From positions 1-51,754 of the forward strand of contig DAOORA010000027.1 in the NCBI GenBank assembly GCA_035389045.1: a DNA stretch of 51,754 nt. Reading direction: 5' to 3'. Positions 3,001 through 51,754 of this stretch are shown piece after piece. How positions within the stretch are numbered: the first letter of the stretch is position 1; every line of letters begins with the position of its first letter. Made by a program: the position numbers. Source of the DNA: Bacteroidales bacterium. GTDB taxonomy: Bacteria > Bacteroidota > Bacteroidia > Bacteroidales > CAIWKO01.

Positions 3001-6000
3001 TGGTCAAGTTTTTTTTGAGGTGCTGAAACTAATCAATGTTTATCAATAAACATATTTATTTGGAAATAATTATACTGCATAAGTTTAGTGGATGATTTCA
3101 CTTGCTTGTATTTCTGCCCTGACGTATATTTTGTAAAAGGCATAACCCTGTCTAAATATCAGCAGACAGGCAGGCAAAGTATAATATTATTCTAGTGCAT
3201 CTATGTTTCATACTGCCATGGCGGCTTAGGTCACTGGCATGGGCTATCTGGAACTATTATTTGGCATTAATTTTTATTGATGCCACGTTTGACCGGTGCA
3301 GAGTACCGCAACATTTGTAAAAATAATTGAAATGAGATATAAGGTACAGCGTACCGAAATATCAAACACCTGATTATGACCGAAACATCAATACTCTGAT
3401 GTAAAACCTATTGTTTTCACACCCCAAAAAGAGGTATTTATACCTGTGATTGTTATGCATCATGAGCATAAAATGTGTACCTATTGAACCATATACGACC
3501 ATTTAAATTAATTAGAGTCTGTCCATGATGTCCGATTTCTTCCCTTCCTGTCCGCCAGCCGGCGGACGGACAGGTTTACTCTTGTCTTGAAAACAGTCGT
3601 CCGCCAGTTAGCGGACTCCTTGATTTTCAAGACTACGAAAACCCCGAACTCGAACATTCTGGTTCAAACTCTGACTTGATAGACAGACACTAATTATGTA
3701 TGTGGCAGATACAATATTACGGTGCTCTGCACCTAACATTTTTTGCGGGGAATTACTGCTTACAAATATTTCGGGGCGCTGCCCCTGTTAACGTTAATTT
3801 TCTAAATATAACCCATAGATTCACACAACAACTGCACGTAATTGAATATCATTTTGGTAACAAATTCGCAAACACAGTAGCAGTGAATAATATTATACAC
3901 TATTATACTATATTTTGTATCATTTTTTAATTCACTTAATATCAATGTTTTATTTTGTTGTGTATAAAAGAGGAATGAAACTCAGGTAATTTCCTATATC
4001 TTTTTTTCATGAATACGATGTTTCTTTCCTTACTCATAGTAACAATCTTTTCTTATAGCACCTCAAAAAATGAAATTACCTCGGAGATTTGATAGCACAT
4101 TCTTAGAATATTTATTCGTATTTTTGTAAAATACCAGTAAAAACTGTTGCTTTTTGCAATTCTTATTAATTACACAAAAAGATTTCAGTCGACATGAATC
4201 ATCAGTCAGACGTTACCATAAGAAATTACGTAAAGGCGATATGGAACTATCGTTACTTAACATACTCGCTGGGTATTGGTGATATTAAGAAAAAATACTC
4301 TTTGAGAACTTTCGGGGTGTTTTTCAGTGTTTTACAGGTTGTCATTACTTTGGTTGTTTACTGGGCAATTTTTGGTGTTATTCTGGGTGTGGGTGTATGG
4401 GGTATTCCTTATCCCCTGTTTGCCTTGCCGGGAATTATTATGTGGCAGTTTTTTTCTGCTACTGTTGGTTCAATGAACGCATCATTGCATAATTCATCCA
4501 ACTTAATATCCAAACTGTATTTTCCGAGGATCAATCTTCTGATTTCACGTCTTATCATTACACTGCCTGATTTACTTATTGGATTAGCCATTTATTTTTT
4601 GTTACTGTTGTATTACAATCAGTCGTTTATCATATCCTGGCTGTGGATATTGCCCCTGATTTTCTATCTGATTCTGGTAACCTTCGGTGTTGGCCTCTGG
4701 CTTAGTATCGTTTCGCTATATCATAAGCAGACTGGAGATATATTGCTTCAATTGGTCAGTTTTTGCTTTTTCATAACCCCGGTTTTTTATCCGGGAACTA
4801 TCGTTCCGGAACACTATAAAATACTTATGAATATTAATCCCATGGCTGCTGTTATTGATGTGTTCAGGGAGTCTTTTTTTATTAGCTTTCCAAAAGACAA
4901 TGGTTATATTATGGGATTTATACTGGGGTTGCTTTTATTTGCCAGTTCGTGTATATTTTTTATGAGAATTGAAAAAAAGATAGCTGATTTGTTATGACAG
5001 AAAAAGTGGCTGTTGAGATTAAAAATGTTTCTAAAAAATATTCCCTTCAGGGAATGAGAACTGCAAAATTTTTGAATTTTATCAATTTACATATAAAAGA
5101 ACAAGAAGCCTTTTTCGCTTTAAAAAACGTTAATTTAACGATCTACAAAGGTGAAATACTTGGAATTATTGGTCCAAACGGAAGCGGAAAAAGTACACTC
5201 CTGAAATTAATAAGCCAAATCACTTCTCCCTCTGGAGGAGAAATTGAAATAAACGGGAAGGTTGCATCGATACTTGAAATAGGAATTGGTTTTCAGCCTG
5301 AACTATCGGGTCATGAAAATATTTTTTTATCAGGTTATATGTACGGCCTCAGCAAAAGAAAAATTGAACAAAACATTGATAACATCGTTGAGATGTTCGG
5401 ATTCCCTGATTTTATTCATACACCGGTTAAGAATTACTCATCAGGGATGTATATGCGTCTGGCTTTTTCAATAGTTTGTCATATTGAAGCAGATATTTAT
5501 TTATTTGATGAGGTGCTAAGTGTGGGTGACGAAAAATTTCAAGGTATTGCAATTAATGAAATAAGGAAAATCAAAGAAAAAGGTGCAAGTGTTTGCATAG
5601 TAACACATGCACATAAAAGCATTTCCGATCTATGTGATAAGGCCTTGTTGTTAAACAAAGGGGAAGTAGTTTCTTATGGACAAACTCATGAAGTACTGAC
5701 CTCTTATGCCCGATTAATATACAAATCAGATGAGCACGATGATAATCTGTGTTTTGAAATATCAGGAGCGAATCTCGCATCAAAAAATCATATTTTTTTA
5801 AAAACCAATGATTTTGTTTTTGTTGCAGAAGAAATAAGGGTAAAAAATGATCCAAATATTGAGGAACATCTTTATAACAATCGAAAATTAATTATTGAAA
5901 TAATATTTAGTTTACAATCAATTATCCCTATAAAGCTGGTGCTTTTTATTAAAGAAAGGTATGACAATATTTTAACATCGTATTTAAACGATTTTTATCC

Positions 6001-51000: not shown

Positions 51001-51754
51001 TAAAATCGCGCAATGCATCACCATTTCCCAATATCTGCAAAGGCTTGTTGTTCAATAGACTTTGGGCAATTTTTGTCATGATAAGATCCGGCCGCAAACG
51101 GGGTCCGTAAACAGAAAACAACCTTAAAGAAATGAAGCGTAAATCATATTTTTCTGAAAACTCTTTCCCGATCTGCTCTGAAATAAGTTTTGATTTTGCA
51201 TACGGGTTTAAGGGGTTGAGTTCTGTTTCATTCTCAATGAAAGGAACCCTTTTGATACTGCCATAGATACTTGACGAAGACGCGAAAATAAACCGCGGGA
51301 TATTCAATTTTACTGACAATTCAAGCGCCCTGGTTATACCCGTGATATTGTTTTCCTCATACCCTTCCGGATACAGTATCGAACTCCTCACTCCCGCTTT
51401 AGCAGCCAAATGTATTATGGCATTAATATCTGCAGGTAAAATTTTAAAAAGATCATGCAGACTACAAATATCTGATTCTATAAACCTGAAGTTCGGCTGA
51501 GACAGCGCATCCGAAATGTTTTTCTGTTTGATTTCCCTTGCATAAAAATCATCAAAATTATCAATGCCAATAACCTTAAAACCCAAATTGAGCAATTTGT
51601 CGGTAAGGTTACTTCCGATAAAACCCGCCGCACCGGTGATAAGGATGGTTTGCATATAAATAAAGCATAAAAATAAGAAAATTATGCTACACGGTTTTTC
51701 TTTAGAAACTGTTTTGATTTTATGTTACATAAGATTTATGATGGATTTTTTAGC

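What a model noticed while it worked through the whole genome (the two positions that open the first line are those of the whole stretch)
4194..51655. 47-kb exported-glycan/lipid locus with 18 diverged radical SAM enzymes
One low-GC locus (37 genes) that opens with a Wzm/Wzt-type ABC exporter holds 18 radical SAM genes: 9 cobalamin-binding ones, 8 of the SPASM/twitch kind and one plain one, mixed with a UbiA prenyltransferase, two ketosynthases, ACP, FabZ, two asparagine-synthase-like amidotransferases, a DegT aminotransferase, a PglD-like acetyltransferase and a single GT2. I read it as the pathway for a cell-surface glycolipid or polysaccharide tailored by an unprecedented series of radical C-methylations, epimerisations/dehydrogenations or C-C couplings. 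New would be a surface polymer chemistry not seen before and a compact library of carbohydrate- or lipid-directed radical SAM enzymes.
Evidence so far: Pfam/NCBIfam rows for g01725-g01761: B12-binding+Radical_SAM g01727, 28, 29, 31, 34, 35, 36, 37, 39; SPASM+Radical_SAM g01742, 45, 54, 55, 56, 58, 59 and Radical_SAM g01757 (27-36% to that set), g01738. Paralogs share 22-40% identity, so they are old and probably differ in function; no small precursor gene, RiPP protease or cyclase. GC 0.28-0.41. A related, rearranged locus with at least 9 SPASM-type and 7 B12-type matches lies in a complete genome of another genus of the family (G418:C1:1.77-1.83 Mb; 31-60% identity, call 92); marker g01732 in 6 of 301 Bacteroidales genomes, not in the one congener sampled. 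59 Radical_SAM genes genome-wide. Closest solved structures, all distant: g01727 to [...]
(Added by a program. Inside this text positions count along the whole contig: contig position 1 is position 1 of the stretch shown here. "Call 12" and the like, gene names such as g00115 and contig names such as C1 are that model's own, and its searches are not shown. The text may have been shortened before it was handed on; [...] marks where a part breaks off. The agent that wrote the report below was given it as the finding of a first reader that could run no searches.)

Follow-up and report, generated by a model that had tools for sequence, protein, structure and literature searches.

The report
Radical-SAM-rich surface glycan locus
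A sludge-dwelling Bacteroidales bacterium carries a sugar-polymer export locus packed with 18 different radical enzymes of unknown function, most likely used to remodel a cell-surface glycan in ways not yet described.

Summary
The window, which is a whole 51.7-kb contig, carries 18 intact radical SAM (rSAM) genes behind a Wzm/Wzt-type ABC exporter. Nine have a B12-binding domain, one is a classical SPASM enzyme and one is short. Seven belong to one catalogued but uncharacterised subfamily, NF033640, whose twitch Fe-S domain sits N-terminal to the core, the reverse of BtrN.

Comparison with other genomes shows three modules. (A) A scaffold of PglD, GT2, AsnB amidotransferase, SDR epimerase, a GT8-fold glycosyltransferase (g60), an SGNH membrane protein and the ABC-2 exporter, widespread in Bacteroidota and often free of rSAM genes. 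(B) An ordered N-twitch series between AsnB and g60; each paralog has its own orthologs elsewhere. (C) A rarer block of B12-rSAM genes with a UbiA-like protein, an ArnT-like GT-C and a degenerate AsnB-like protein.

No conserved precursor peptide was found. The locus has at least three glycosyltransferase-like genes, not one. A congener carries an even larger version.

My best reading (0.55) is one ABC-exported, carrier-linked surface glycan that is radical-tailored in the cytoplasm and finished in the periplasm. The chemistry is inferred only. Five literature searches found no description. Novelty: new variant of a known kind. Interest 0.72.

The parts
4194..4997 (+). g25, ABC-2 (Wzm-type) permease
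   Evidence: PF01061, 35.3 bits. Best NCBIfam match is the galactan export permease Wzm/RfbD, 39.3 bits, well below its cut-off of 380. Five hydrophobic segments.
4994..6226 (+). g26, ABC ATPase (Wzt/TagH-type) with a C-terminal extension of about 160 aa
   Evidence: ABC_tran, 82 bits. Best NCBIfam matches are TagH-type (192 bits) and Wzt/RfbE (172.9 bits), both below cut-off. The extension is kept in G382 but not in G296, G396 or G023.
6339..7871 (+). g27, B12-binding-domain radical SAM (subgroup g27/28/29/31)
   Evidence: Pfam. CPNRCNFC motif. 38-41% identical to g28, g29 and g31. Best solved relatives are 9ccb and AprD4, both distant.
7891..9444 (+). g28, B12-binding-domain radical SAM
9539..11128 (+). 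g29, B12-binding-domain radical SAM
11489..13249 (+). g30, degenerate AsnB-like protein
   Evidence: Only a weak GATase_7 match of 24.8 bits. It lacks the N-terminal Cys and has no SGGxDS motif. Conserved next to the exporter in G382 (46% identity) and G296 (23%).
13239..14783 (+). g31, B12-binding-domain radical SAM
   Evidence: Ortholog at 52% identity in G281.
14773..16965 (+). g32, polytopic GT-C-like membrane protein (ArnT/PMT_2 type)
   Evidence: PMT_2 at exactly its cut-off, 26.1 bits. About 11 hydrophobic segments. ESM Atlas feature and structure neighbours are ArnT/PMT_2 clusters. Found in 10 of 401 genomes of the order.
16962..17810 (+). g33, divergent UbiA-superfamily membrane protein; overlaps g32 by 4 bases
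   Evidence: PF01040, 51.5 bits. UbiA fold. The first Asp-rich motif is altered and the second (DYEAD) is kept, in all 3 orthologs aligned.
17807..19327 (+). g34, B12-binding-domain radical SAM (pair g34/g35)
   Evidence: Hydrophobic C-terminal stretch.
19333..20865 (+). g35, B12-binding-domain radical SAM
20852..22300 (+). g36, B12-binding-domain radical SAM (pair g36/g37; best NCBIfam match HpnJ)
   Evidence: HpnJ 201.9 bits against a cut-off of 577.6..
22304..23749 (+). g37, B12-binding-domain radical SAM
   Evidence: HpnJ 223.9 bits against a cut-off of 577.6. Best solved relative is AprD4 6fd2, E 6.8e-22. Orthologs at 54% (G382) and 51% (G296) identity.
23723..24550 (-). g38, short radical SAM (275 aa) with a Cys-rich C-terminus
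   Evidence: PF04055, 31.2 bits. CQLHCSHC motif plus 6 Cys between residues 234 and 271.
24547..25902 (-). g39, B12-binding-domain radical SAM
   Evidence: Orthologs at 48% (G382) and 47% (G296) identity.
25907..27712 (-). g40, membrane protein (5 hydrophobic segments) with a C-terminal SGNH/GDSL domain
   Evidence: Lipase_GDSL at its cut-off, 23.6 bits. Hydrophobic segments. A relative lies in 20 of 79 g60 loci and next to the GT-C in G382, G281, G023 and G128.
27794..28384 (+). g41, PglD/NeuD-type hexapeptide N-acyltransferase
   Evidence: PglD_N plus Hexapep. NeuD/PglB/VioB family 148 bits against a cut-off of 160.8; LpxD 71.6 bits.
28412..29857 (-). g42, N-terminal-twitch radical SAM
   Evidence: NF033640, 171.6 bits against a cut-off of 170. 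Own clade with G296 and L114 orthologs, SH-aLRT 93.
30437..31537 (+). g44, DegT-type sugar aminotransferase
   Evidence: PF01041, 291 bits. PseC 205.5 bits, below cut-off.
31522..32637 (-). g45, classical radical SAM with a C-terminal SPASM domain; the most conserved gene of the set
   Evidence: AhbD 129 bits, below cut-off. 53-61% identical in G296, G327 and G111, always between PglD and FabZ. Solved relatives are distant.
32696..33154 (+). g46, FabZ/FabA-like dehydratase
   Evidence: PF07977, 33 bits
33151..34440 (+). g47, ketosynthase; an extra copy seen only in this window among the loci compared
   Evidence: Pfam. FabF 243 bits, below cut-off. Active-site Cys present. The other loci show one KS, of the g48 type.
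34430..35707 (+). g48, ketosynthase
   Evidence: 47-55% identical in G296, G327 and G111.
35725..35970 (+). g49, acyl carrier protein
   Evidence: PP-binding, 20.1 bits, E 7.5e-4. The only small ORF conserved in 3 or more related stretches, found in 5.
35974..36579 (+). g50, probable 4'-phosphopantetheinyl transferase
   Evidence: Weak ACPS match, E 0.0044, and TIGR00556, E 0.0047. Position kept after the ACP in G327 and G111.
36572..37549 (+). g51, GT2 glycosyltransferase
   Evidence: PF00535, 81 bits
37537..39306 (+). g52, AsnB-type glutamine amidotransferase (WbpS-like role inferred)
   Evidence: TIGR01536 422 bits, above its cut-off of 267; TIGR03108 403.7 bits, below cut-off. MCG N-terminus and SGGIDS motif. 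Beside g60 in 55 of 79 loci.
39258..40517 (+). g53, exported or membrane-anchored protein with a transglutaminase-like Cys-His-Asp pattern
   Evidence: One N-terminal hydrophobic segment. PF01841, E 0.065 only. Alignment A2; one ortholog lacks the Cys and His. The pattern is my reading.
40550..41920 (+). g54, N-terminal-twitch radical SAM
   Evidence: NF033640, 146.7 bits. Own clade, SH-aLRT 100.
41927..43246 (+). g55, N-terminal-twitch radical SAM
   Evidence: NF033640, 134.7 bits. Own clade, SH-aLRT 100.
43246..44706 (+). g56, N-terminal-twitch radical SAM (modelled)
   Evidence: NF033640, 169.2 bits. AlphaFold2 pLDDT 89.4. BtrN is the best solved relative by sequence, with the domain order permuted. 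Own clade, SH-aLRT 100.
45118..46497 (+). g57, N-terminal-twitch radical SAM
   Evidence: NF033640, 167 bits. Own clade, SH-aLRT 100.
46490..47941 (+). g58, N-terminal-twitch radical SAM
   Evidence: NF033640, 154.3 bits. Own clade, SH-aLRT 100.
47925..49424 (+). g59, N-terminal-twitch radical SAM
   Evidence: NF033640, 156.5 bits. Own clade, SH-aLRT 99.
49421..50629 (+). g60, GT8-fold (GT-A) glycosyltransferase with an inserted helical subdomain; marker of the scaffold cassette
   Evidence: No Pfam or NCBIfam match. Invariant D92 and D94 (alignment A1). AlphaFold2 pLDDT 87.4. Foldseek matches glycogenin, UGGT, XXYLT1, LARGE1 and WbbM. 304 relatives in one-per-species genomes.
50699..51655 (-). 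g61, SDR sugar-nucleotide epimerase/dehydratase
   Evidence: Epimerase 192.9 bits. GalE 174.6 and TviC 128.4 bits, both below cut-off. An epimerase lies beside g60 in 35 of 79 loci.

Best explanation
This is one ABC-transporter-dependent surface-glycan locus of O-antigen or capsule type, from a Bacteroidales bacterium. It is built from three modules.

Module A is a scaffold that is widespread in Bacteroidota. Sugar-nucleotide enzymes (SDR epimerase g61, DegT aminotransferase g44, PglD-type N-acyltransferase g41, AsnB/WbpS-like amidotransferase g52) feed two cytoplasmic glycosyltransferases (GT2 g51 and the GT8-fold g60). The product is exported by the Wzm/Wzt-type pair g25/g26. An ACP/KS/FabZ/PPTase set and the SPASM enzyme g45 probably make an unusual N-acyl substituent for the amino sugar.

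Module B is an ordered series of seven N-terminal-twitch rSAM enzymes, probably eight. They act in the cytoplasm, one after another and each with its own task, on the nucleotide-sugar or carrier-linked glycan. The likely reactions are of the BtrN type (H-atom abstraction leading to oxidation, epimerisation, deoxygenation or C-C bond formation).

Module C holds nine B12-domain rSAM enzymes, the short rSAM g38, the UbiA-like g33, the GT-C g32, the SGNH protein g40 and g30. It builds and tailors a polyprenyl-phosphate-linked sugar at the membrane. The GT-C then transfers that sugar onto the exported glycan in the periplasm, by the same logic as decaprenyl-phosphoryl-arabinose or undecaprenyl-phosphate-Ara4N.

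Shown here: gene families, intact motifs, modular synteny and orthologous series. Inferred: every substrate and every reaction.
For: Exporter and sugar enzymes. g60 has a GT8 fold and its matches include WbbM, the glycosyltransferase of an ABC-exported O-antigen. g32 is ArnT/PMT_2-like.

The whole gene set recurs, rearranged, in G296. The core of exporter, g30, B12 genes, UbiA, GT-C, SGNH and PglD recurs in another family, G382. The cassette DegT-PglD-SPASM-FabZ-KS-ACP-PPT-GT2-AsnB-N-twitch-g53-g60 plus the ABC pair recurs in G327, G111, G382, G198, G093 and G023.

Around g60 relatives, AsnB lies in 55 of 79 loci, an epimerase in 35 and N-twitch genes in 32. Loci without rSAM genes read ABC-PglD-GT2-AsnB-epimerase-g60-SGNH, so the arrays are additions to a scaffold.

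Each of the 7 window N-twitch paralogs has its own orthologous clade (SH-aLRT 93-100), and the order g54 to g59 is kept in L048, L044, L114, L040 and L043. Natural two-unit fusions exist.

The nearest solved relatives act on sugars or nucleotides: BtrN, AprD4, viperin, BlsE and MoaA. HpnJ is the best NCBIfam match of g36 and g37.

Of the 10 genomes with g32, 8 also have N-twitch genes, against 21 of 401 overall; the genomes are related, so this is not a proper test.

Only the ACP is a conserved small ORF. There is one exporter in the window and the whole locus has low GC. An AsnB-type amidotransferase that makes a uronamide in a Bacteroidota surface glycan is documented (PMC7468200, passages read).
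Against: No product is known and no enzyme here reaches the cut-off of any characterised equivalog.

No initiating phosphoglycosyltransferase, chain terminator, ligase or outer-membrane export component was seen among the 37 window proteins. I did not search the rest of the genome for them.

The ABC pair lies within 10 kb of g60 in only 18 of 79 loci, and B12 genes in only 4 of 79. The modules can therefore live apart.

The UbiA-like protein has an altered first Asp-rich motif, so its activity is uncertain. The PMT_2 and GDSL matches sit exactly at their Pfam cut-offs.

The Foldseek matches of the N-twitch model cover only the generic rSAM core, with TM 0.29-0.36 by query. They do not identify a substrate.

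Seven to fourteen distinct radical steps are hard to place on a simple repeat unit.
Confidence: 0.55

Rival explanations
1. The product is a secreted or membrane glycolipid, or a lipid natural product. The KS/KS/ACP/FabZ/PPTase set builds an acyl or polyketide chain. The rSAM enzymes then methylate, cyclise or cross-link that chain (or an isoprenoid handled by the UbiA-like protein). The sugars are only a head group, and the ABC-2 pump exports a small molecule.
For: Two active-looking ketosynthases, an ACP, a PPTase-like protein and FabZ. Sub-threshold matches of the B12 proteins to the 'lipid biosynthesis B12-binding/radical SAM protein' TIGR04072 (67-121 bits against a cut-off of 360) and to the hopanoid enzymes HpnJ and HpnR. 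Hydrophobic C-terminal stretches on g31, g34 and g35. The UbiA fold of g33. ABC-2 pumps also export drugs: DrrA scores 116 bits.
Against: KS and ACP lie beside only 5 and 6 of 79 g60 loci, while N-twitch genes lie beside 32. Arrays occur without a KS or ACP in the 40 kb fetched of G023 and the 20 kb fetched of G198 and G093. There are three glycosyltransferase-like genes and four sugar-nucleotide enzymes. The ATPase matches Wzt/TagH better than DrrA. No acyltransferase, ketoreductase or thioesterase is present.
Confidence: 0.2
2. These are two or three independent pathways that merely lie side by side in a variable, horizontally acquired glycan region: the scaffold glycan, a separate N-twitch product and a separate B12/UbiA/GT-C product.
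For: The modules occur apart. Of the 79 g60 loci, 47 have no N-twitch gene and 75 have no B12 gene. L105 has B12 genes without N-twitch genes. Strand switches occur at 23.7-32.7 kb. A dispersed repeat sits in the gap at 11333-11386.
Against: The window has one exporter. Modules B and C sit together again in G296, G396, G198 and G308, in different orders. 8 of the 10 genomes with g32 also have N-twitch genes. Many genes overlap their neighbours at start and stop. The N-twitch array lies inside module A, between AsnB and g60.
Confidence: 0.15
3. This is a RiPP or protein-maturation cluster. The SPASM/twitch and B12 rSAM enzymes modify a ribosomal peptide or protein, as in proteusins and sactipeptides. 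The AsnB-like proteins act as cyclases and the ABC pump exports the peptide.
For: Most characterised SPASM/twitch enzymes act on peptides. RiPP families appear among the sub-threshold NCBIfam matches (ApyD up to 158 bits, rSAM_ocin_1 up to 111 bits, lasso cyclase 55-190 bits). g53 is an exported protein encoded beside the array.
Against: I clustered 543 small ORFs from the window and 23 related stretches. Only the ACP recurs in 3 or more; hypervariable precursors could escape this test. No RiPP protease, peptidase-ABC or RRE domain appears in Pfam or NCBIfam. The C-terminal part of the N-twitch model is all-helical. The consistent neighbours are sugar enzymes and glycosyltransferases. g53 lies beside only 8 of 79 loci.
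Confidence: 0.04

Closest known systems
ABC-transporter-dependent O-antigen and capsule pathways (Wzm/Wzt; for example the Klebsiella O2a galactan with WbbM)
   Same: An ABC-2 permease with an ATPase. Cytoplasmic GT2 and GT8-fold glycosyltransferases; WbbM is among g60's Foldseek matches. Sugar-nucleotide enzymes lie in the same locus.
   Different: No known locus of this type carries arrays of rSAM genes; that statement rests on my recall plus searches. No initiating enzyme or chain terminator was seen in the window. The exporter scores are far below the curated cut-offs.
BtrN (butirosin 2-deoxy-scyllo-inosamine dehydrogenase), a twitch-domain rSAM
   Same: It is the best solved relative by sequence of the N-twitch protein g56, E 4.2e-6. 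The 25-protein N-twitch alignment keeps four invariant Cys for one auxiliary cluster plus the CxxxCxxC motif. BtrN's substrate is a sugar-like molecule (recalled).
   Different: The twitch domain is N-terminal here and C-terminal in BtrN: BtrN residues 167-233 align to g56 residues 55-120. The N-twitch proteins have an extra helical domain of about 140 aa. The match is weak (28.9 bits, E 4.2e-6). The function is untested.
Sugar-directed B12-domain rSAM enzymes: AprD4 (apramycin), HpnJ (hopanoid cyclitol ether), GenK
   Same: A B12-binding-type domain followed by the rSAM core. AprD4 is the best solved relative of g37 (E 6.8e-22). HpnJ is the best NCBIfam match of g36 and g37. These enzymes act on free or lipid-linked amino sugars (recalled).
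   Different: All scores are far below the equivalog cut-offs (for example 223.9 against 577.6). There are nine diverged paralogs in one locus rather than one. Whether they methylate, dehydrate or rearrange is unknown, and cobalamin binding itself is only a domain prediction.
Tailoring on a lipid carrier followed by GT-C transfer: the mycobacterial UbiA-type DPPR synthase, DprE1/E2 and GT-C arabinosyltransferases; ArnC/ArnD/ArnT (recalled)
   Same: A UbiA-superfamily protein is translationally coupled to an ArnT/PMT_2-like GT-C by a 4-base overlap. The two are adjacent again in G382. Tailoring enzymes lie between and around them.
   Different: The UbiA-like protein has an altered first Asp-rich motif and no match to a named subfamily. 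The tailoring enzymes would be rSAMs rather than flavoenzymes or deformylases. No flippase was identified.
WbpS / PGN_1234, the AsnB-type uronamide-forming amidotransferase of the Porphyromonas gingivalis A-LPS linking sugar (PMC7468200, passages read)
   Same: g52 is a complete AsnB with the Cys nucleophile and PP-loop motif. It scores 403.7 bits on TIGR03108, the family the paper assigns to WbpS. The setting is a Bacteroidota surface-glycan locus.
   Different: The score is below the TIGR03108 cut-off of 816.9. I made no direct comparison with PGN_1234. The substrate is unknown.
Proteusin (polytheonamide-type) RiPP clusters with several B12-rSAM and rSAM epimerase genes (recalled)
   Same: Several diverged rSAM tailoring enzymes in one cluster act repeatedly on one scaffold.
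   Different: No precursor peptide, RRE or protease was found. The neighbours are glycan genes.

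Membership tests
NCBIfam NF033640 (N_Twi_rSAM, twitch domain-containing radical SAM protein) | Score at or above the curated cut-off of 170 bits | tested here: inconclusive
   g42 scores 171.6. g56 scores 169.2, or 168.6 counted as 170.6 with its neighbours in the frame. The other five score 134.7-167. These are a sister group of the core family; the genome's C108 and C11 copies score 321-374.
NCBIfam NF033640 (N_Twi_rSAM) | An N-terminal four-Cys (twitch-type) motif ahead of the CxxxCxxC core | tested here: met
   The Pfam SPASM match lies N-terminal to Radical_SAM in 7 of 7. C57, C75, C116, C119 and C156, C160, C163 are invariant in the 25-sequence alignment A3.
Cobalamin-dependent (class B) radical SAM enzymes | An N-terminal B12-binding domain plus a CxxxCxxC radical SAM core | tested here: met
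   PF02310 scores 34-58.7 bits against a cut-off of 32.1, with PF04055, in 9 of 9. The motif is present in 9 of 9.
Cobalamin-dependent (class B) radical SAM enzymes | Cobalamin actually bound, and a defined reaction such as methyl transfer | not testable with these tools
   No equivalog cut-off was reached; the best is HpnJ at 223.9 against 577.6. The nearest solved relative, AprD4, is a dehydratase rather than a methylase (name).
ABC-transporter-dependent (Wzm/Wzt) glycan pathway | An ABC-2 permease with a cognate ATPase in the locus | tested here: met
   PF01061 and PF00005 on adjacent, overlapping genes. The best NCBIfam names are Wzm/KpsM and TagH/Wzt, all below cut-off.
ABC-transporter-dependent (Wzm/Wzt) glycan pathway | Cytoplasmic polymerising glycosyltransferases | tested here: inconclusive
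   GT2 g51 and the GT8-fold g60 are present. Polymerase activity is unknown.
ABC-transporter-dependent (Wzm/Wzt) glycan pathway | An initiating phosphoglycosyltransferase, a chain terminator or cap, and a ligase or outer-membrane export partner | tested here: not met
   None was found among the 37 window proteins. The rest of the genome was not searched; such genes often lie elsewhere (recalled).
Glycosyltransferase family 8 (for g60) | GT-A fold with a DxD motif | tested here: met
   The model has pLDDT 87.4. 133 Foldseek matches have E <= 0.001, led by glycogenin, UGGT, XXYLT1, LARGE1 and WbbM; the TM by query is low (0.21-0.41) because of an inserted subdomain. D92 and D94 are invariant.
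Glycosyltransferase family 8 (for g60) | A match to the Pfam family model | tested here: not met
   No Pfam or NCBIfam family matched, even at E <= 5 or E <= 1. g60 works like a GT8 by fold but is not filed as a member.
GT-C glycosyltransferases of ArnT/PMT type (for g32) | A polytopic membrane protein matching PMT_2 | tested here: met
   PF13231 scores 26.1 bits, equal to its cut-off. About 11 hydrophobic segments. Atlas structure neighbours are ArnT/PMT_2 clusters, TM up to 0.76 by target. There is no solved relative by sequence.
UbiA prenyltransferase superfamily (for g33) | Two Asp-rich motifs | tested here: inconclusive
   The Pfam match is 51.5 bits against a cut-off of 34.2, and the fold has TM 0.90. 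The first motif reads N-x3-G-x3-D in all 3 orthologs; the second, DxxxD, is kept. The canonical motif is recalled.
RiPP biosynthetic cluster | A precursor peptide gene, an RRE or leader-binding domain, and a leader protease | tested here: not met
   No small ORF other than the ACP is conserved, out of 543 small ORFs in 24 stretches. No such Pfam or NCBIfam domains were found.

The most novel reading that the evidence does not exclude
The N-terminal-twitch rSAM enzymes form an ordered, non-redundant 'radical editing line'. It rewrites the stereochemistry, oxidation state or carbon skeleton of a nucleotide- or carrier-linked sugar before ABC export. The B12-domain enzymes do the same on a polyprenyl-phosphate-linked sugar that a GT-C then adds in the periplasm.

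If so, this is a new mode of glycan diversification. It would also give a first function to a family with about 4,900 clusters at 50% identity, and it implies surface sugars of types not yet seen.
Probability: 0.3. Interest if true: 0.85.

Novelty: new variant of a known kind. Interest (0 to 1): 0.72.

Why it matters
Radical SAM tailoring of sugars is known from single enzymes in antibiotic pathways. Here whole ordered series of 7 to 14 or more enzymes are wired into surface-glycan export loci across Bacteroidota.

If they act on the glycan, bacterial surfaces contain sugar chemistries that current glycan 'alphabets' miss. That would bear on phage and immune recognition and on biomarkers from anoxic and engineered habitats.

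The locus also offers a compact, naturally ordered set of orthologous enzymes for assigning function to NF033640. That family is catalogued but has no known reaction, and it has thousands of sequence clusters. The same applies to many orphan B12-domain rSAM enzymes.

Tried and rejected
- **Rfam and tRNA scans of the window:** nothing found, including in the 1.2-kb gene-free stretch at 3007-4194 where I had looked for a cobalamin riboswitch. The promoter and terminator scan was uninformative: 11 promoter-like sites against 17.6 expected.
- **UbiA subfamily:** NCBIfam at E <= 1 and the ESM Atlas gave only generic UbiA.
- **Solved relatives:** g32 has none by sequence. Those of g45 and g27 are distant and generic.
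- **Fold search of the N-twitch model:** it matched only the common rSAM core, so it does not name a substrate.
- **Joining C27 to a neighbouring contig:** the shared terminal 21-mer occurs 43 times in the genome, so I made no join.
- **Tree:** the careful search did not finish in 300 s and I used the quick tree. The two C108 proteins fell below the E <= 1e-40 filter and are not in the tree.
- **Copy numbers per genome:** not usable, because only 4 candidates per genome were scored.
- **RNA evidence:** contigs from two metatranscriptome libraries cover 20 of 30 and 12 of 30 bins with 0-1 mismatches. The tool warns that DNA can be present in such libraries, so transcription is not shown; uncovered bins mean nothing.
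- **Literature:** searches found no description of N-terminal twitch enzymes or of rSAM arrays in glycan loci. A Bacteroidales RiPP-mining paper (PMC10352776) appeared in a listing but I did not read it.

Full report
**1. What is there**

The window is a complete 51,754-base contig (C27) of a 4.46-Mb draft genome.
- An ABC-2 permease and ATPase pair sits at 4194-6226.
- Nine proteins carry a B12-binding domain plus a Radical_SAM core.
- Eight proteins carry a SPASM-type match plus Radical_SAM.
- One is a short Radical_SAM protein.
- Also present are a UbiA-family protein, two ketosynthases, a FabZ-like dehydratase, an 81-aa ACP, a DegT aminotransferase, a PglD-type acyltransferase, a GT2, two AsnB-like proteins and an SDR epimerase.

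All 18 rSAM proteins keep CxxxCxxC. Paralogs are 22-41% identical, and the B12 genes fall into subgroups {g27, g28, g29, g31}, {g34, g35}, {g36, g37} and g39. The genome has 62 Radical_SAM matches, 18 of them on this contig. The locus GC is 0.340 against 0.409 for the genome, lower than any of 222 sliding 47-kb windows.

**2.

- In seven of the eight 'SPASM' proteins the Fe-S domain lies N-terminal to the rSAM core. All seven match one NCBIfam subfamily, NF033640, the 'twitch domain-containing radical SAM protein', at 134.7-171.6 bits against a cut-off of 170.
- Four N-terminal Cys and the three core Cys are invariant in a 25-sequence alignment.
- The best solved relative by sequence is BtrN. 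Its C-terminal twitch (residues 167-233) aligns to residues 55-120 of g56, so the domain order is permuted.
- The RadicalSAM.org paper describes SPASM and twitch domains as C-terminal to the barrel (PMC9477430, passages read).
- g60, which has no family match, models with pLDDT 87.4. It matches GT8-type glycosyltransferases, including WbbM of an ABC-exported O-antigen, and has invariant D92 and D94.
- g32 is an ArnT/PMT_2-like GT-C.
- g50 is a probable PPTase, on weak matches.
- g53 has an N-terminal hydrophobic segment and a transglutaminase-like Cys-His-Asp pattern. That is my reading of alignment A2; Pfam gives only E 0.065.
- g30 lacks the AsnB nucleophile and the PP-loop motif, whereas g52 has both.
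- g43 has no relative in any locus compared. It lies in a divergent intergenic region, and I take it as spurious.

**3. One pathway or several**

The g32 marker occurs in 10 of 401 sampled genomes of the order and NF033640 matches in 21 of 401. Eight genomes have both. The genomes are related, so this is descriptive only.

In the complete genome G296 (same family, other genus), a stretch of about 56 kb holds 12 N-twitch matches and about 7 B12 matches. It also holds g60, g53, AsnB, GT2, ACP, one KS, FabZ, the SPASM gene (61% identity), PglD, DegT, the GT-C, UbiA, the g30-like gene, both ABC genes, the SGNH gene and an epimerase, in a different order. A genome of another family (G382) keeps the exporter, g30 (46%), an N-twitch gene, four B12 genes, UbiA, the GT-C, the SGNH gene and PglD on one contig. 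It keeps ACP, GT2, five N-twitch genes and g60 on another.

The run DegT-PglD-SPASM-FabZ-KS-ACP-PPT-GT2-AsnB-N-twitch-g53-g60, plus an ABC pair, recurs in whole or in part in G327, G111, G198, G093 and G023. A congener (G396) has a region of more than 60 kb with at least 14 N-twitch matches, at least 9 B12-type matches, four SGNH matches and the ABC pair.

**4. The wider frame**

I scanned one genome per species with the g60 alignment. It found 304 relatives, and the best 79 loci were kept. They come from Bacteroidales, Chitinophagales, Flavobacteriales, Sphingobacteriia and Saprospiraceae, with a few labelled Verrucomicrobiota. Nearly all are MAGs.

| Gene within 10 kb of g60 | Loci (of 79) |
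|---|---|
| AsnB | 55 |
| epimerase | 35 |
| N-twitch | 32 (up to 9 copies) |
| SGNH | 20 |
| ABC ATPase | 18 |
| GT2 | 16 |
| B12 | 4 |

Loci without rSAM genes read ABC-PglD-GT2-AsnB-epimerase-g60-SGNH. The window is therefore an elaboration of a common scaffold, with the N-twitch series sitting between AsnB and g60.

N-twitch genes accompany g60 in 11 of 13 loci labelled Bacteroidales and in 10 of 17 Chitinophagales-type loci. They do so in only 2 of 18 Flavobacteriales-type, 0 of 3 Sphingobacteriia and 0 of 2 Verrucomicrobiota-labelled loci. I made those labels by hand from the record titles, and 26 of the 79 loci with vaguer titles were left out of that tally.

**5. The paralogs are old and each is kept**

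I built a quick maximum-likelihood tree of 70 N-twitch proteins: 7 from the window and 63 ORFs of at least 300 aa that passed E <= 1e-40 against a window-based HMM. Support is SH-aLRT only, because the careful search did not finish. Every window paralog falls in its own clade with orthologs from other genomes: g55, g56, g57, g58 and g54 at 100, g59 at 99 and g42 at 93.

The order g54-g55-g56-g57-g58-g59-g60 followed by one more N-twitch gene is kept in L048 (46-60% identity). With losses or insertions it is also kept in L044, L114, L040 and L043. The N-twitch gene on the 3-kb contig C131 groups with the 'post-g60' orthologs (SH-aLRT 99). The locus therefore probably continues there, but the contig end is a repeat and I made no join.

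Fused two-unit N-twitch proteins exist. A profile search of 1.84 billion representative proteins gives 4,944 clusters at E <= 1e-30. The names that sources give to 120 close homologs are all generic.

**6. Against the RiPP reading**

I clustered 543 small ORFs from the window and 23 related stretches. Only the ACP recurs in three or more, being found in five. No RRE, leader protease or peptidase-type ABC domain was found. The C-terminal 140 aa of the g56 model are all helical. Hypervariable precursors could escape this test.

**7. How it most likely works (inference)**

All rSAM enzymes need SAM and a reductant, so they should act in the cytoplasm or at its membrane face, before export.

*Module A* supplies an amino sugar (DegT and the PglD-type transferase, possibly N-acylated from the ACP/KS/FabZ set, with the SPASM enzyme always placed between them). 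It also supplies a uronamide-type sugar (SDR epimerase plus the AsnB enzyme g52). An AsnB-type WbpS makes the uronamide of the P. gingivalis A-LPS linking sugar (PMC7468200, passages read). GT2 and the GT8-fold g60 assemble the glycan, and Wzm/Wzt exports it.

*Module B* would edit the sugar or the carrier-linked glycan in a fixed sequence. The core of the N-twitch model resembles enzymes that act on nucleotides or nucleoside sugars (viperin, BlsE, MoaA), and by sequence BtrN. That is a hint only.

*Module C* resembles pathways in which a sugar is tailored on a polyprenyl phosphate and then transferred by a GT-C in the periplasm (recalled: DPPR synthase, DprE1/E2 and the Emb/Aft enzymes; ArnC, ArnD and ArnT). 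Four observations point that way.
- The UbiA-like g33 overlaps the GT-C g32 by four bases, and the two are adjacent again in G382.
- g36 and g37 match HpnJ best.
- g37 matches AprD4 among solved structures.
- Several B12 proteins end in hydrophobic stretches.

The SGNH protein g40 and the transglutaminase-like g53 would act outside the cytoplasm.

Weak points: the UbiA-like protein has an altered first Asp-rich motif. No initiating transferase, terminator or ligase is in the window. No enzyme reaches an equivalog cut-off.

**8. Other data**

No Rfam family or tRNA was found. Near-identical DNA occurs in activated-sludge and anaerobic-digester metagenomes: three rows hold half or more of the sampled words, and one of them may be the source. 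Contigs from two metatranscriptome libraries match parts of the locus perfectly, which is at most a weak hint of transcription.

**9. Comparison and verdict**

The kind is known: an ABC-transporter-dependent glycan locus with rSAM tailoring of sugars. The variant is not in print as far as searches reach. What is new is ordered, orthologously conserved series of N-terminal-twitch rSAM enzymes, and blocks of B12-domain rSAM enzymes, embedded in such loci across Bacteroidota.

I rate it a new variant of a known kind, interest 0.72. Confidence is 0.55 for the one-glycan reading, 0.20 for a lipid or glycolipid product, 0.15 for independent neighbouring pathways and 0.04 for a RiPP.

Noticed in passing
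G000 contig C11 (locus L019) 2909-4270 (-) and 4618-5955 (-): Two tandem N-twitch rSAM genes that are true NF033640 members (321 and 339 bits) and only 59% identical to each other. Each carries one in-frame stop at the same alignment column, TAG in one and TGA in the other, where the C108 paralogs have Trp. This means either two independent hits on the same codon or some form of read-through. They sit beside a plain rSAM gene, three GT1 genes and a second ABC-2 permease/ATPase pair.
   Followed up: partly
G000 contig C131 (locus L018) 146-1684 (+): An eighth window-type N-twitch gene on a 3-kb contig. It groups with the orthologs that follow g60 in other genomes (SH-aLRT 99) and is followed by a Big_2-domain protein. 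It is probably the continuation of this locus.
   Followed up: partly
window 11333-11386 and 51701-51754: A 54-nt element in the g29-g30 gap is a 96% inverted copy of the contig's last 54 bases. A 21-mer from it occurs 43 times in the genome and sits at several contig ends, so it is a dispersed repeat that breaks the assembly.
   Followed up: partly
window 44707-45117: A 411-bp gap between g56 and g57 that orthologous arrays such as L048 lack. One DNA run (X2) has a contig that skips 153 bases at 44932-45086, so an intergenic insertion is polymorphic in nature.
   Followed up: no
window 1-409: GC-rich 55-nt repeat units, four copies at 78-100% identity, each made of hairpin-like GGCTTCGA..GCC motifs. 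They lie at the contig start, upstream of a TPR protein at 614-2965.
   Followed up: no
window 29858-30268 (-): The 136-aa ORF g43 has no family match and no relative in any related locus. It lies in the divergent region between g42 (-) and g44 (+) and is likely not a gene.
   Followed up: partly
window 3007-4194: A 1.2-kb stretch without an ORF of 100 aa or more, just upstream of the exporter. It has no Rfam match, and terminator-like hairpins at 3599-3616 on both strands.
   Followed up: partly
G296:C1:1817382-1819784, G279:C309, and proteins P0121-P0124: Natural fusions of two N-twitch rSAM units in one reading frame of 870-981 aa.
   Followed up: no
G000 contig C108 (locus L017) 112-2997 (-): Two further core NF033640 genes (358 and 374 bits) next to a monofunctional transglycosylase and a split transketolase, not in an obvious glycan export locus.
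   Followed up: no
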